Assembly: GCA_964016885.1 (NCBI GenBank)
Contig: OZ024763.1
Span: forward strand, 3,658,001 to 3,722,000
Origin: Eledone cirrhosa
Lineage: Eukaryota
Length of the DNA stretch: 64,000 bases
Direction of reading: 5' to 3'
In this document: positions 16,206 through 46,119 of the stretch, piece after piece
Numbering within the stretch: position 1 is the stretch's first letter
How the letters are laid out: each line of letters begins with the position of its first letter
Program-made: the position numbers and the translations under genes
Notes under the pieces: generated by a model
Told to the model about the DNA's origin: nothing
The model's database searches: none
The model's input: only the letters and a program-made list of their open reading frames with translations

Positions 16206-16212
16206 TCCCCAG

Positions 16213-16390
16213 GTTACGAGATCCTTCTCCATTGGTTCGTATAAACACAGTCCGTGTCCTCTCCCATCTAATACTCAACGACATGGTCAAAATTAAGGGC
16301 CAAATCAGTGAGATGGCCATCTGTATCATTGATCCCGATGAAAACACCCAGGCACTGGTTAAAATATTCTTTTCGGAACTTTCCCAAAAG
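16213..16390 (+). CDS. NCAPD2: NCAPD2 coding exon
   Basis: ccccag|...|gtaagc; LRDPSPLVRINTVRVLSHLILNDMVKIKGQISEMA...FFSELSQK. Confidence 0.95.
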
Positions 16391-16771
16391 GTAAGCCACT
16401 AAACTAAGTAATATATGTATATATGTATATATTCATTCTTTCTAACACCGGATTCACTAACGAAAGGTCTGTTTTCTGACTCGCTCATATATTCATACAG
16501 CTTATGCTGAAAGAATAACTATGTTGCTTGTGTTTATTTCCATCTTCGGTTAGCTTCCCCCTGTGTTGTTTACTTGTCTCACTCGCTTTACGCGTTTCTA
16601 TTGTCCTAATAACTTATTTTAGTTATTATCGCTCCAACGTGAGGTATATGATTTTTAATGCGATGAAATACCCATGATCGTTTGGTAAATCACTGATGAG
16701 GGACTCATTTTATAACATGTTATCCATGTGCAACCAGCAGTATTCTTCTCACCCATATTTTCATATATATT

Positions 16772-24477: not shown

Positions 24478-25556
24478 CCCTTTATCATTCGCATTAATTT
24501 TCAAACGTCATGCTTATCTGTTCGCATTATTTTGAGTTAATCATACTCAAGAGGGTGATCAATTTTATTTGTTTGTAATTTTCTTAATTTTCTATGTGCA
24601 GACTTGAAATTTTGTCAGTAGATGTTTAAATATCAATAATTTACAATTATATAATTTTACCTGATTTTTCTTTGGTCAAATTTGACTTTTATGGGCAGGT
24701 GAAATTAATTAATAGGGACATTTGAAGTATCAACCAGGTGCAAATACTGGTTTAATTTTAAATACGTTGTTTTCAGCATAATACTTGATATATAAGAATC
24801 ACTAAATCTTATATCAGTGTTCCAGTAATTCCACAGTCTTGGAAATTGTTTTATACTGAATATAATATTTATGGTAAAAAATGCTTGCATTTCCACAGCA
24901 TCTGTCGGTCGCTAAACAGATCGGGTTTTCCTCAATTTGAAATCTGTTGTTGGGCATATCGATTAATCTCTTCTGCCATAACTTCGAACAAAGTTTGTGG
25001 TAAAAACAAAAAGAAATAATCCAGTGCTTTAGATTCAGGAGCTAACATGTGTTGTGGACCAGTAATTTGAATAAAATTGGTGTGGTATTTTTCAACTAAG
25101 TTGCTGTAATATTTTCAATGGCGCCCTGGAGTCTCCTTCGTTTTCACTTTCAAAACAACAACCATCGTTGGACGAAATTTCAGAAATATAAATATCAGAT
25201 TTATTTGAAGATAAATCACTAATATTATCGTTTGTTTGTTGTTTATTCTGAATGTCGTCGTGTGTAAAAACTTCAGTCGGTATCACTACTTTCACAAGCC
25301 ATGTTGATACAAAAAAAAAAATTTGTTGCACTTTCAAAGTTAAAAAAACACGTGTTGTTTTAAGTTGTTCCACTATATTAAGTGTTAATTTTCGCGGTAA
25401 AGACCTAATCTCGCAGCAGTCTCGAATTGACGAGATTTTGATGATGGTTTGTTTATTTTTAGAATGACTTTTTTTAGTGTGGGTGTTTTCGGGTGATTTC
25501 GGGCGGTTTGAACAAATGAAGGGGAAATAATTTCAGGCGGTTTGAACACTAAAGGG
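24478..25556 (-). mobile_element. degraded piggyBac transposon
   Basis: TTAA|CCCTTTA...TAAAGGG|TTAA; transposase relics ALDYFFLFLPQTLFEVMAEEINRYA and PRLWNYWNTD..ISSIM...LNQYLHLVD, acidic N-terminus. Confidence 0.82.
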
Positions 25557-25706
25557 TTAAAGGGTTAAGGAACACTGTATGCTGATAGTACGGGGATGCC
25601 TGTGATTCCCTCAGGAGTTACAGGTCCATAACATAACATTGCAAGGATATTGAAATGAAATGTCTGTTATTTACATTGATGTGTGTCTACTTTTATTGTC
25701 TTTCAG

Positions 25707-25717
25707 ACGAAGACTGA
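25707..25717 (+). CDS. NCAPD2: probable terminal NCAPD2 coding exon (DED*)
   Basis: strong acceptor ttgtctttcag; phase 1 gives D-E-D-TGA; AATAAA at 26014-26019; see finding on the alternative frames. Confidence 0.6.
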
Positions 25718-25991
25718 ACCTTCAGATGGCAGCGACAACGAAGACTTCATTCCGGCTGCTAAGACATCTGAGTAAAAGGATGAGGTCAACCAGGAGGCAG
25801 AACTCATCCCCACTGAAGCCTGTCAGCTGAAGTTTTTGTAGATATGTATATATACACAATGTATAGCAGACATTGAGGTCCAAACATTCAACACGGTCAT
25901 TCTCTCTCACAAAGATGTATATATATATGTATATACATATATATATATATACATATGTGTGTGTATGTATGTATATATATATATATATATA

Positions 25992-26392
25992 TAAAATATT
26001 AAAAAAAATAATGAATAAACAAAGAAACAGTTCCTTATATTAAACAAAAAAAGTTCATTATTTAACGATCGTTTCTAGGACATATATGTGTTAGAATTGG
26101 CATGCATATTCAAAAGATCTATGTACAAAATTATACAAACTATCAAAGAGAATATACATACCAACACATATATATGCTGTCTTCAGAAATAATCCGTCAG
26201 AAGACAGCATATATATGTGTTGGTATGTATATTCTCTTTGATAGTTTGTATAATTTTGTACATAGATCTTTTGAATATGCATGCCAATTCTAACACATAT
26301 ATGTCCTAGAAACGATCGTTAAATAATGAACTTTTTTTGTTTAATATAAGGAACTGTTTCATTGTTTTATTCATTATTTTTTTAATATTTTA
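25992..26392. repeat. ~190-bp-arm near-perfect inverted repeat (fold-back element) between (TA)n tracts
   Basis: 26000-26184 is the reverse complement of 26200-26385, with a ~15-nt spacer; mirror-image ORFs 26091-26282(-) and 26102-26293(+). Confidence 0.95.
26057..26193 (-). ncRNA. type I hammerhead ribozyme motif with 104-nt stem II
   Basis: minus strand: ATTATTT-CTGAAGA-(long hairpin incl. TTGGTATGTATATTC/GAATATGCATGCCAA)-GAAA-CGATCG-TT-AAATAAT; palindromic stem III; first stem II pair is a C-A mismatch. Confidence 0.68.
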
Positions 26393-26512
26393 TCTTGACT
26401 CTGTATTCCGTTTATCTTTCACCGAAAGTGATCTCTTCTTTCCATGATATCCGGATTACATTGAGTTGTTCATACGGATTGAACACTACCGTAAACTTTT
26501 GGTAGATTTATC

Positions 26513-26738: not shown

Positions 26739-26861
26739 TTAACTTTTCACTATACATACATTTCACTCACCCAAGTATTGAGTACTTAACCAAACGTATT
26801 ACTAGTCTTAACTGGTGACTCTCTGTGTGTGTGGTTATGTAATTAACAACATAAGACAATT

Positions 26862-26936
26862 ATTCCATTTACCAAAGGTTTCACGAAGCCAGACAAGCTC
26901 AAGACAGTCGTCTGAAATGGCTCATCAGAATGAAAT
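26862..26936 (-). ncRNA. type I hammerhead ribozyme motif (mirror copy)
   Basis: minus strand reads ATTTCATT-CTGATGA-gccatttcagacga...ttgtctggcttcgt-GAAA-CCTTTGG-TA-AATGGAAT. Confidence 0.72.
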
Positions 26937-26959
26937 TTTATTTGAAGACTTCAAATAAA

Positions 26960-27034
26960 ATTTCATTCTGATGAGCCATTCCAGACGACTGTGTTGAGCT
27001 CGTCTGTCTTTGTGAAACCTTTGGTAAATGGAAT
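26960..27034 (+). ncRNA. type I hammerhead ribozyme motif
   Basis: stem I ATTTCATT/AATGGAAT, CTGATGA at 26968-26974, 39-nt stem II domain (CAGACGA/TCGTCTG), GAAA at 27014-27017, stem III CC-TTT-GG, GUA site (cut after 27026). Confidence 0.75.
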
Positions 27035-27122
27035 AATTGTCTTATGTTGTTAATTACATAACTATATAGCTCTGTAGTATATATATAGAGAGCACTTTCC
27101 TTTCCTTTACCTTTCTTACGGA

Positions 27123-27176
<54 letters not shown>

Positions 27177-27363
27177 TAAGATGCAGTTTCACATTGAAGG
27201 TTTTTATTAATTAAACTCAGTTACGGACGTTTCACAGATGGTTGGCTCAGGATCCTTAGATAAGATTAGAAGAGATTAGGGGCTGGATTCTGGTCTATAA
27301 CACAAACAGAGACCCTGGGCCTAATCAATAGAAACCTCAATGTGAAACCTCATTTTCTTCTGA

Positions 27364-27395
<32 letters not shown>

Positions 27396-27859
27396 TATAT
27401 ATAATATATACATATATATAATATATACTTATATATAATATATACATTTATATAATATATATATATATATATAATATATACATATATATAATATATACAT
27501 ATATATAATATATACATTTATATAATGATGATGATGATGATGATATATATATAATATACATATATATAATGTATACATTTATATAATATATACATATATA
27601 TATATGTTATATATTTTCTATATTTCTATGACACACGTATCTGTGTGCCCACTTGGTCATAGAGCCATCACATAGTATGGGGGAGGGGGACATTATGCTG
27701 TTTAGCAATGCTAAACAAGCTTAACTGTACCTGTCCTAGGGACGACAAATCCGAAGTTGCTGCAAACCAAATGTAGAAATGTGCTTTACCAAACAATGTT
27801 GTGTTTAAGAAAGGAAGTAGTCGATGATATGTCTGAGTATGTAGAGATGTAATTTGTGT

Positions 27860-30800
27860 GTCCAGGTGTGATTTGATTGAGACAGGTGTACAAGTGTGAT
27901 TTGATTTGTGTACAGGTGTGATTTGATTGAGACAGGTGTACAAGTGTGATTTGATTGTGTACAGGTGTGATGTGAGTGGAGACAGGTGTACAAGTGTGAT
28001 TTGATTGTGTACAGGTGTGATGTGAGTGGAGACAGGTGTACAAGTGTGATTTGATTTGTGTAGAGGTGTGATGTGAGTGGAGACAGGTGTACAAGTGTGA
28101 TTTGATTTGTGTAGAGGTGTGATGTGAGTGGAGACAGGTGTACAAGTGTGATTTGATTGTGTACAGGTGTGATGTGAGTGGAGACAGGTGTACAAGTGTG
28201 ATTTGATTGTGTACAGGTGTGATGTGAGTGGAGACAGGTGTACAAGTGTGATTTGATTGTGTACAGGTGTGATGTGAGTGGAGACAGGTGTACAAGTGTG
28301 ATTTGATTTGTGTAGAGGTGTGATGTGAGTGGAGACAGGTGTACAAGTGTGATTTGATTGTGTACAGGTGTGATGTGAGTGGAGACTTGTGTACAGGTGT
28401 GATGTGAGTGGAGACAGGTGTACAAGTGTGATTCGATTGTGTACAGGTGTGATGTGAGTGGAGACAGGTGTACAAGTGTGATTTGATTGTGTACAGGTGT
28501 GATGTGAGTGGAGACTTATATATAATATATACATTTATATAATATATATATATATATATAATATATACATATATATAATATATACATATATATAATATAT
28601 ACATTTATATAATGATGATGATGATGATATATATATAATATACATATATATAATGTATACATTTATATAATATATACATATATATATATGTTATATATTT
28701 TCTATATTTCTATGACACACGTATCTGTGTGCCCACTTGGTCATAGAGCCATCACATAGTATGGGGGAGGGGGACATTATGCTGTTTAGCAATGCTAAAC
28801 AAGCTTAACTGTACCTGTCCTAGGGACGACAAATCCGAAGTTGCTGCAAACCAAATGTAGAAATGTGCTTTACCAAACAATGTTGTGTTTAAGAAAGGAA
28901 GTAGTCGATGATATGTCTGAGTATGTAGAGATGTAATTTGTGTGTCCAGGTGTGATTTGATTGAGACAGGTGTACAAGTGTGATTTGATTTGTGTACAGG
29001 TGTGATTTGATTGAGACAGGTGTACAAGTGTGATTTGATTGTGTACAGGTGTGATGTGAGTGGAGACAGGTGTACAAGTGTGATTTGATTGTGTACAGGT
29101 GTGATGTGAGTGGAGACAGGTGTACAAGTGTGATTTGATTTGTGTAGAGGTGTGATGTGAGTGGAGACAGGTGTACAAGTGTGATTTGATTTGTGTAGAG
29201 GTGTGATGTGAGTGGAGACAGGTGTACAAGTGTGATTTGATTGTGTACAGGTGTGATGTGAGTGGAGACAGGTGTACAAGTGTGATTTGATTGTGTACAG
29301 GTGTGATGTGAGTGGAGACTTGTGTACAAGTGTGATTTGATTGTGTACAGGTGTGATGTGAGTGGAGACAGGTGTACAAGTGTGATTTGATTGTGTACAG
29401 GTGTGATGTGAGTGGAGACAGGTGTACAAGTGTGATTTGATTGTGTACAGGTGTGATGTGAGTGGAGACTTGTGTACAAGTGTGATTTGATTGTGTACAG
29501 GTGTGATGTGAGTGGAGACAGGTGTACAAGTGTGATTTGATTGTGTACAGGTGTGATGTGAGTGGAGACTTGTGTACAAGTGTGATTTGATTGTGTACAG
29601 GTGTGATGTGAGTGGAGACAGGTGTACAAGTGTGATTTGATTGTGTACAGGTGTGATGTGAGTGGAGACAGGTGTACAAGTGTGATTTGATTGTGTACAG
29701 GTGTGATGTGAGTGGAGACAGGTGTACAAGTGTGATTTGATTGTGTACAGGTGTGATGTGAGTGGAGACAGGTGTACAAGTGTGATTTGATTGTGTACAG
29801 GTGTGATGTGAGTGGAGACAGGTGTACAAGTGTGATTTGATTGTGTACAGGTGTGATGTGAGTGGAGACAGGTGTACAAGTGTGATTTGATTGTGTACAG
29901 GTGTGATGTGAGTGGAGACTTGTGTACAGGTGTGATGTGAGTGGAGACAGGTGTACAAGTGTGATTTGATTGTGTACAGGTGTGATGTGAGTGGAGACAG
30001 GTGTACAAGTGTGATTTGATTTGTGTAGAGGTGTGATGTGAGTGGAGACAGGTGTACAAGTGTGATTTGATTGTGTACAGGTGTGATGTGAGTGGAGACA
30101 GGTGTACAAGTGTGATTTGATTGTGTACAGGTGTGATGTGAGTGGAGACAGGTGTACAAGTGTGATTTGATTTGTGTAGAGGTGTGATGTGAGTGGAGAC
30201 AGGTGTACAAGTGTGATTTGATTGTGTACAGGTGTGATGTGAGTGGAGACTTGTGTACAGGTGTGATGTGAGTGGAGACAGGTGTACAAGTGTGATTCGA
30301 TTGTGTACAGGTGTGATGTGAGTGGAGACAGGTGTACAAGTGTGATTTGATTGTGTACAGGTGTGATGTGAGTGGAGACAGGTGTACAAGTGTGATTTGA
30401 TTTGTGTAGAGGTGTGATGTGAGTGGAGACAGGTGTACAAGTGTGATTCGATTGTGTACAGGTGTGATGTGAGTGGAGACAGGTGTACAAGTGTGATTTG
30501 ATTTGTGTAGAGGTGTGATGTGAGTGGAGACAGGTGTACAAGTGTGATTTGATTGTGTACAGGTGTGATGTGAGTGGAGACAGGTGTACAAGTGTGATTT
30601 GATTGTGTACAGGTGTGATGTGAGTGGAGACAGGTGTACAAGTGTGATTTGATTGTGTACAGGTGTGATGTGAGTGGAGACAGGTGTACAAGTGTGATTT
30701 GATTGTGTACAGGTGTGATGTGAGTGGAGACAGGTGTACAAGTGTGATTTGATTGTGTACAGGTGTGATGTGAGTGGAGACAGGTGTACAAGTGTGATTT

Positions 30801-45450: not shown

Positions 45451-45759
45451 CAGGTGCCAAATAATAGAGGGGTGGTTGGAATAAGTGGGGAGTGGTAGAT
45501 GTAGAGAGAGAGGGTGAAGGTGGGAGGTAAAATCCCTGGATGTTTTCTAGTAATATAAAATCCTGTTAGCCTCTTTCTGGAGGAAATGATACAGTCGGTA
45601 TGTCATGTAAGGTATGTGATGAAACTTATAACCTCCAGTTCACAGCTGGTGAAAGGAAAGGAAAGGAATTTCTCACAGGGTAAACTATATGTGAAGAGAA
45701 AAGAAAATTTTTTTTAAAAACATACAAATCTATATACATATATGTCGCCCTAAATCATA

Positions 45760-46119
45760 GCTTAGTGGTTAGAGCATTGGCCTTGCAATCGAAAGGTTGT
45801 GAGTTCAATTCTCAGACCGGGTGATGTGTTGTTTCCTTGAGCAAGACACTTTATTTCACATTGCTCCAGTTTACTCAGCTGTAGAAATGAGTTGATCGGG
45901 ACCATCATTCGACTGCAAAGTGGGCGTGGAGGTACCACGGCAAAAAAACACCCAGCCCACACTGTAAAGTGGACATGTAGGCGCCACGGAAAAAAAGCAC
46001 CCAGCACTCACTGTAAATGAGGTTGGTGTTAGGAAGGGCACCCAGCTGTAGAAATCAAGCCAGAATCAGTTCCCGTTCCACCCTTGCAAGCAGGGAAAAG
46101 TGGACGTAAAATGATGATG
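45760..46119 (+). mobile_element. SINE family A copy
   Basis: matches family A with an internal subrepeat. Confidence 0.83.

What the first reader, a model, noticed from the sequence alone, without database searches (positions are those of the whole stretch)
26834..27062. Two-faced palindrome encoding a complete hammerhead on each strand
The 114-bp arms diverge at about five positions, all within the stem II region. CTGATGA, GAAA, stem III (A-CC-TTT-GG-T), the GUA site and the 8-bp stem I are identical in both arms. The first stem II pair is G-U rather than the usual G-C. The + copy lies ~1.25 kb past the probable NCAPD2 stop, so it could cut read-through transcripts. Pairing between the arms would compete with ribozyme folding and could silence it.
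Basis: partly seen in the sequence, partly recalled or inferred. Interest (0 to 1): 0.75.

Follow-up and report, generated by a model that had tools for sequence, protein, structure and literature searches.

The report
Back-to-back Penelope retrotransposon ends with hammerheads
This mirror-image stretch is two back-to-back, truncated ends of a common Penelope-like jumping gene, each carrying a hammerhead ribozyme motif; such pairs recur across this animal genome and are described in print, and RNA read through both halves is predicted to fold into one hairpin that blocks self-cleavage.

Summary
The palindrome is real: 114-bp arms, 5 mismatches, and a type I hammerhead motif on each strand. It is not a host device.

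Each arm is the end of a dispersed repeat (1,297-1,913 first-look candidates). In 89 sampled insertion sites, 33 are head-to-head, 12 of them with a full hammerhead on both arms, and 29 of the 33 carry a ~60-bp tail on one arm only.

At two other loci the tail runs into an ORF family with the Hydra-clade Penelope motifs RWK, DKT and CxCX5C. Inverted 5'-truncated copies, one-sided tails and opposite-strand hammerheads are published for Penelope-like elements (PMC8557442, PMC4209133).

Both arms have lost stem II pair 3, which the family keeps. In NCAPD2 read-through RNA the hairpin beats the ribozyme fold by ~107 kcal/mol and captures the core as it is made, so cutting is unlikely.

This scan has noted such palindromes elsewhere in this genome. 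Verdict: an ordinary, decaying transposon remnant.

The parts
26834..26947 (-). Left arm: inverted, 5'-truncated copy of the element's terminal (pseudo-LTR) unit, ending at the family's short 3' end, without a tail
26862..26936 (-). Type I hammerhead motif: core at 26928, GAAA at 26882, predicted cut after 26870; stem II pair 3 broken (C·C)
26948..26948 (.). Head-to-head junction (1-nt spacer) at unit position ~133; many copies of the family are 5'-truncated at positions 131-137
26949..27062 (+). Right arm: 5'-truncated copy of the same terminal unit
26960..27034 (+). Type I hammerhead motif: core at 26968, GAAA at 27014, predicted cut after 27026; stem II pair 3 broken (C·U)
27063..27126 (+). 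Tail (~60 bp, degenerate), on this arm only; in longer copies elsewhere it continues through a leader into the ORF
27127..27176 (.). (TA)n tract, the family's usual 3' flank and likely target; the left flank is a short (TG)n at 26824-26833; no target-site duplication can be read
25707..25717 (+). Context: probable last coding exon and stop codon of NCAPD2, inferred from splice phase; poly(A)-signal hexamers at 25998, 26014 and 26039

Best explanation
The palindrome is two head-to-head, 5'-truncated copies of the hammerhead-bearing terminal unit of an abundant repeat family that is likely a Hydra-clade Penelope-like retrotransposon; this copy is likely inert and decaying, and RNA read through both arms is predicted to form one long hairpin rather than self-cleave. 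Shown: family membership, the recurring head-to-head layout, two fixed 3' ends, a tail on one arm only, microsatellite flanks, and continuity of the tail into an ORF family with Hydra motifs. The ribozyme's original job was in the transposon's RNA, not the host's.
For: Family size: 1,297 and 1,913 first-look candidates, of which 40 were scored per search. Architecture of 89 sites: 52 single, 33 head-to-head, 3 same-strand pieces, 1 tail-to-tail. Of the 33, 29 have a tail on exactly one arm, 3 on both and 1 on neither. 3' ends: 65 long, 58 short, 5 other, of 128 pieces. Partner ORF: in L185 the tail runs straight into a leader and ORF, and L222 shows the same join (84% over 406 bp). Of 20 10-kb regions around top hits of that endonuclease, 13 hold the hammerhead unit: co-oriented 1.7-4.8 kb downstream in 8, inverted upstream in 9. 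Motifs RWK, DKT, GSFD, YRDD, CxCX5C, YVGxT, CxxC and CxH are present, matching the Hydra-clade description (PMC8557442 section 11). Inverted 5'-truncated copies and one-sided tails are described for PLEs (PMC8557442 passages). Two RT start sites bounding the tail, and cutting and extension of both strands, were shown in vitro (PMC11167929 parts 1-2 of 4). Hammerheads 100-700 bp apart on opposite strands were already noted for truncated PLEs (PMC4209133 part 1 of 4). Decay: arms differ from the family majority at 6 (+) and 7 (-) of 112 positions. The hammerhead fold lies 4.9 and 5.4 kcal/mol above the MFE, against 2.5 for the family majority and a median of ~4.2 in 71 copies. The full hairpin is -172.3/-173.7 kcal/mol, 106-107 below the hammerhead fold.
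Against: The partner ORF pieces gave no Pfam RT or GIY-YIG hit and no PDB hit. Their 209 homologues (120 listed, mostly ~700 aa) carry no informative names. The clade label therefore rests on motifs, not a tree. Penelope-type families nest in each other's microsatellites: two unrelated families also appear in 5 and 4 of the same 20 regions, and a first candidate partner proved wrong (1 of 30). Three of the 20 regions were already known to be co-located when fetched. The 89 sites are top BLAST hits of three queries, one of them the tail, so they are not a random sample. All 5 arm differences fall in stem II (P=0.018, post hoc). The tail here is ~60 bp against 30-40 bp in the literature. The 3' region of the element is longer than in the <3-kb Hydra elements described.
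Confidence: 0.88

Rival explanations
1. Host-exapted ribozyme: the + copy cuts NCAPD2 read-through RNA at 27026/27027 and aids termination, with arm pairing as an off-switch.
For: The + motif is co-oriented with NCAPD2, 1,251 bp after the inferred stop. Core, stem I and stem III are identical in both arms, and the arm differences cluster in stem II (P=0.018).
Against: Read-through RNA meets the antisense arm first. The core is predicted to pair with it at p~1.0 once the RNA reaches 26985, and only RNAs starting at about 26940 or later escape. Stem II pair 3 is broken in both arms. Family-wide the core changes at 0.031-0.038 per column, like the non-ribozyme 3' flank (0.033). Poly(A) hexamers lie ~1 kb upstream. 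A metazoan PLE minimal hammerhead showed no cleavage as a monomer and little as a dimer (PMC4209133 part 2).
Confidence: 0.03
2. Non-autonomous retrozyme: a ~300-nt hammerhead monomer copied from a circular RNA and mobilised by PLE proteins.
For: The unit is ~300 bp with a type I hammerhead. Many copies align from unit position 13. Retrozyme-like palindromic arrays are noted elsewhere in this genome (unchecked notes). Retrozymes are proposed to derive from pLTRs (bioRxiv 10.64898/2026.07.22.740005, part 1 of 5).
Against: No head-to-tail multimer of the whole unit among 89 sites. The position-13 'start' is where alignment fails in a microsatellite, because shared sequence continues upstream. 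The tail continues into an ORF.
Confidence: 0.05
3. The palindrome arose after insertion, or by fold-back of one cDNA, rather than by two priming events.
For: The window arms share 4 changes relative to the family majority, and L065, L024 and L083 share 7, 4 and 4, which fits a single template or later conversion between arms.
Against: The short arm stops at the family's own short 3' end, which single copies also use, and 29 of 33 pairs have exactly one tail. The fold-back hairpin near the junction hotspot is only about -1 kcal/mol. Most pairs share 0-2 changes (12 of 16 pairs).
Confidence: 0.15
4. Assembly or sequencing artefact (hairpin chimera).
For: No public contig spans the whole stretch.
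Against: The arms differ at 5 positions, only one has the tail, and the layout recurs on many contigs with different junctions.
Confidence: 0.01

Closest known systems
Hydra-clade C-terminal-EN Penelope-like elements (Craig et al. 2021, PMC8557442; abstract, passages and section 11 read)
   Same: Partner ORF has RWK, DKT, a CxCX5C linker, a GIY-YIG-like C-terminal domain with CxxC and CxH; hammerhead in the terminal unit; (TA)n flanks; inverted 5'-truncated copy; tail at one end only.
   Different: Tail ~60 bp rather than 30-40; 1.7-4.8 kb of microsatellite-rich DNA lies between the endonuclease and the hammerhead unit (partly nested insertions), whereas Hydra elements are described as <3 kb; the window copy has no ORF.
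PLE hammerheads (Cervera and De la Pena 2014, PMC4209133; parts 1-2 of 4 read)
   Same: Type I motif with a short stem III suited to dimer folding; dual motifs on opposite strands from truncated PLEs are mentioned explicitly.
   Different: First stem II pair is G-U or A-U rather than the conserved G10.1-C11.1; stem I is 8 bp; loop 3 is UUU, so a dimer would carry U·U mismatches.
Poseidon PAc of Anolis (Frangieh et al. 2024, PMC11167929; parts 1-2 of 4 read)
   Same: Two fixed 3' ends bounding a tail; AT-rich targets; hammerhead at the pLTR-ORF junction.
   Different: Different clade; the ORF here starts ~190 nt after the short end rather than within stem II; no activity was tested here.
Metazoan non-LTR retrozymes (PMC7229834, passages read; bioRxiv 10.64898/2026.07.22.740005, part 1 of 5)
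   Same: ~300-bp, AT-rich unit with a type I hammerhead.
   Different: No tandem monomers in 89 sites; the unit is the end of an ORF-bearing element.

Membership tests
Type I hammerhead ribozyme | Core CUGANGA, GAAA, UH | tested here: met
   Both arms
Type I hammerhead ribozyme | Stems I and III | tested here: met
   8 of 8 and 3 of 3 pairs in both arms; a sister family keeps them with an unrelated, fully paired stem II (2 copies)
Type I hammerhead ribozyme | Intact stem II with G10.1-C11.1 | tested here: not met
   G-U first pair (family trait); pair 3 broken in both arms, 3 of 4 pairs
Type I hammerhead ribozyme | Match to an Rfam hammerhead model | tested here: not met
   None at the gathering score or at E<=10
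Type I hammerhead ribozyme | Self-cleavage | not testable with these tools
   Needs an in vitro assay
Penelope-like elements | Hammerhead-bearing terminal unit joined to an RT + C-terminal endonuclease ORF | tested here: met
   At other loci of the family, not in the window; domain identity is by motif only (no Pfam hit)
Penelope-like elements | 5' truncation with an inverted adjacent copy | tested here: met
   33 of 89 sites
Penelope-like elements | Optional tail at one end | tested here: met
   29 of 33 inverted pairs; window tail 27063-27126
Hydra clade | RWK, DKT, CxCX5C, CxxC/CxH motifs and (TA)n targets | tested here: met
   against PMC8557442 section 11; flanks
Hydra clade | Phylogenetic placement with Hydra RTs | not tested
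   No named reference proteins fetched; supplements of PMC8557442 not opened
Non-LTR retrozymes | Head-to-tail tandem monomers each with a hammerhead | tested here: not met
   None of 89 sites
Non-LTR retrozymes | Circular RNA | not testable with these tools

The most novel reading that the evidence does not exclude
The family records a two-ended insertion mechanism: a dimeric Penelope-type protein primes both ends of one cut, one subunit at each of the two RT start sites, so that head-to-head copies get exactly one tail (29 of 33). Read-through from NCAPD2 would turn this copy, and its neighbour 440 bp upstream, into hairpin sources of siRNA against their own families (inverted Penelope repeats giving siRNA: PMC3681739 passages), not into ribozymes.
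Probability: 0.4. Interest if true: 0.45.

Novelty: new member of a known kind. Interest (0 to 1): 0.2.

Why it matters
As a locus it matters little: it is one decayed copy of a large transposon family in a layout already in print. Its value is as a data point. How Penelope-like elements form inverted copies is called an open question in PMC8557442, and the one-tail rule and junction hotspot in this family give a prediction for in vitro TPRT. It also warns scanners that two-strand hammerhead palindromes near genes are common in this genome and are predicted to be self-silenced.

Tried and rejected
1. First partner candidate, the endonuclease upstream in L003: rejected. It has its own hammerhead and terminal unit, and our unit follows it in 1 of 30 loci, so it is a nested insertion. 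The inverted endonuclease in L020 was seen but not linked.

2. Rfam: no hammerhead. The 81 hits at E<=10 were all below their gathering scores, the best being miRNA-type hairpin models.

3. Pfam and PDB searches of the partner ORF found no RT or endonuclease family.

4. Expression: no RNA holder listed, which is no evidence either way.

5. Public contigs X1-X4 (one study) are fragmented over the repeat and none spans the stretch. One 60-nt piece crosses the centre without differences but has fewer than 31 letters on a side, so it does not count as bridging.

6. Fold-back self-priming at the junction hotspot: hairpin only about -1 kcal/mol, not supported.

7. 5' ends at the ribozyme cut site: 5 of 128 pieces start at unit positions 203-211, with no clear excess; not tested formally.

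8. Covariation analysis was not run: the copies descend from near-identical masters.

9. Search of earlier findings by sequence: nothing.

10. Paper searches found the general pattern in print; none of the listed titles or abstracts describes this family. Supplements were not opened and may list it.

11. The first script regex was wrong (0 hits) and was rerun.

Full report
Observation. The inverted repeat is at 26834-26947 / 26949-27062, with 114-nt arms, 96% complementary and 1 nt apart. The arms differ at five positions, all between CUGAUGA and GAAA. Each arm, read outward from the centre, has an 8-bp stem I, CUGAUGA, a stem II region, GAAA, stem III A-CC-UUU-GG-U and GUA. The predicted cuts are after 27026 (+) and after 26870 (-). 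Rfam finds no hammerhead model here, so the call rests on core and stem checks. The host gene upstream is NCAPD2-like on + (Cnd1 match at 16211-16405, E 7e-13). Its stop is inferred at 25715-25717 from splice phase, assuming no further exon in between.

It is a repeat family. The arm has 1,297 first-look candidates in the 3.0-Gb genome (40 scored, 51 matches), and the 3' end has 1,913. The loci show a unit of about 300 bp with variable 5' ends and two fixed 3' ends, mostly running into (TA)n. The long end adds a ~60-bp tail. I classified all 89 insertion sites in loci L001-L090: 52 single, 33 head-to-head, 3 same-strand pieces and 1 tail-to-tail. Twelve head-to-head sites, the window included, have a full hammerhead on both arms. 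The tail is on exactly one arm in 29 of the 33, on both in 3 and on neither in 1. These are top hits of three queries, one of them the tail, so the fractions are not genome-wide estimates.

The autonomous partner. A first candidate endonuclease upstream in L003 belongs to another family with its own hammerhead; our unit follows it in 1 of 30 loci. Walking upstream through microsatellite-rich shared sequence led to a second endonuclease family. I fetched 10 kb around 20 of the 25 loci listed, leaving out the query locus, two already fetched and two others. Thirteen hold the hammerhead unit: co-oriented 1.7-4.8 kb downstream in 8 and inverted upstream in 9. Two unrelated families appear in 5 and 4 of the same regions, so nesting gives a real background. 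The firmer link is direct continuity: in L185 the tail runs through a ~120-nt leader into the ORF start, and L222 independently shows the same join (84% over 406 bp). The ORF pieces contain RWK, DKT, GSFD, YRDD, CxCX5C, YVGxT, CxxC and CxH, which match the diagnostic features of Hydra-clade Penelope-like elements (PMC8557442 section 11). Pfam and PDB gave no RT or endonuclease hit. There are 209 longer homologues without informative names. No tree was built.

State of this copy. Among 80 copies covering the motif, the third stem II pair has G in 68. Both window arms have C, which breaks the pair. The arms share four changes from the family majority and differ from it at 6 and 7 of 112 positions. 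The hammerhead fold costs 4.9 (+) and 5.4 (-) kcal/mol over the MFE, against 2.5 for the majority sequence and a median of about 4.2 among 71 copies; 39 of 80 copies are intact by my criteria. The G-U first pair is a family trait (G-U 37, A-U 24, G-C 2 of 67 motif copies, a few possibly counted twice). A sister family keeps the core, stem I and stem III with a different, fully paired stem II (2 copies), which suggests the fold mattered to the element lineage. Across 78 other copies, the core changes as often as the non-ribozyme 3' flank (0.031-0.038 against 0.033 per column), and 48% of changes fall in the CpG-rich stem II region. Even so, having all five arm differences there has P=0.018 weighted and 0.004 unweighted. 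This post hoc result is the one point in favour of constraint or partial conversion between arms.

How it likely works. Shown in print: PLE insertions are 5'-truncated, often with an inverted truncated copy at the 5' end and a tail at one end (PMC8557442 passages). The tail lies between two RT start sites, and the protein cuts and extends both strands of AT-rich DNA (PMC11167929). Opposite-strand hammerhead pairs come from truncated PLEs (PMC4209133). Inferred here: both ends of one cut were primed, one from each start site, and the two short cDNAs were joined head to head near unit position 133. Fold-back of a single cDNA fits the shared changes but not the one-tail rule, and the local hairpin is weak.

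Effect on the host. Any transcript crossing both arms folds into a hairpin of -172 to -174 kcal/mol, about 106-107 below the ribozyme-containing fold. In a nascent + strand RNA, stem I and the core pair with the left arm at p~1.0 by position 26985, before the ribozyme is complete; only RNAs starting at about 26940 or later escape. Poly(A) hexamers lie at 25998-26039. A metazoan PLE minimal hammerhead did not cleave as a monomer (PMC4209133). Cutting of NCAPD2 read-through RNA is therefore unlikely. If transcribed, the more plausible product is double-stranded RNA; inverted Penelope repeats yield siRNA in flies (PMC3681739 passages). No RNA evidence was available.

Earlier notes and verdict. 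This scan has several unchecked notes on hammerhead palindromes of Penelope type elsewhere in this genome, including the two-ended priming idea and a Hydra-clade case; none matched this sequence. A second, younger hammerhead palindrome of another family sits 440 bp upstream. The finding is a new member of a known kind, interest 0.2.

Noticed in passing
window 25991-26393: Second head-to-head palindrome (197-bp arms, 95%) of a different, younger family (993 first-look candidates; 53 matches at 97-100%, many as inverted pairs). The - arm has a hammerhead-like motif with a ~105-nt stem II and a palindromic CGAUCG stem III loop; the + arm's core is broken at the junction. The nearest NCAPD2 poly(A) hexamers (25998, 26014, 26039) lie inside its left arm.
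   Followed up: partly
window ~24900-25570, - strand: Looks like a decayed piggyBac-type remnant in the last NCAPD2 intron, with a TTAACCC-like end near 25555-25570; the label is recalled, not tested.
   Followed up: no
window 27340-28990: AT-rich and 50-bp GT-rich minisatellites, with a 300-bp exact duplication 1,084 bp apart.
   Followed up: no
window 45758-45815 +: Weak tRNA match followed by sequence that recurs in many loci; probably a tRNA-derived SINE.
   Followed up: no
unit positions 131-137 across loci L001-L090: Cluster of 5' truncation and inversion junctions ~18 nt upstream of the ribozyme core; unexplained, and partly favoured by the first query.
   Followed up: partly
L065, L024, L083, L001: Some inverted pairs share 4-7 changes from the family majority while 12 of 16 share 0-2: a common diverged template or conversion between arms.
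   Followed up: partly
L091-L120, L043, L051, L099, L110, L118: Several other Penelope-type families with their own hammerheads, some also on both strands, often nested in each other's (TA)n ends.
   Followed up: no
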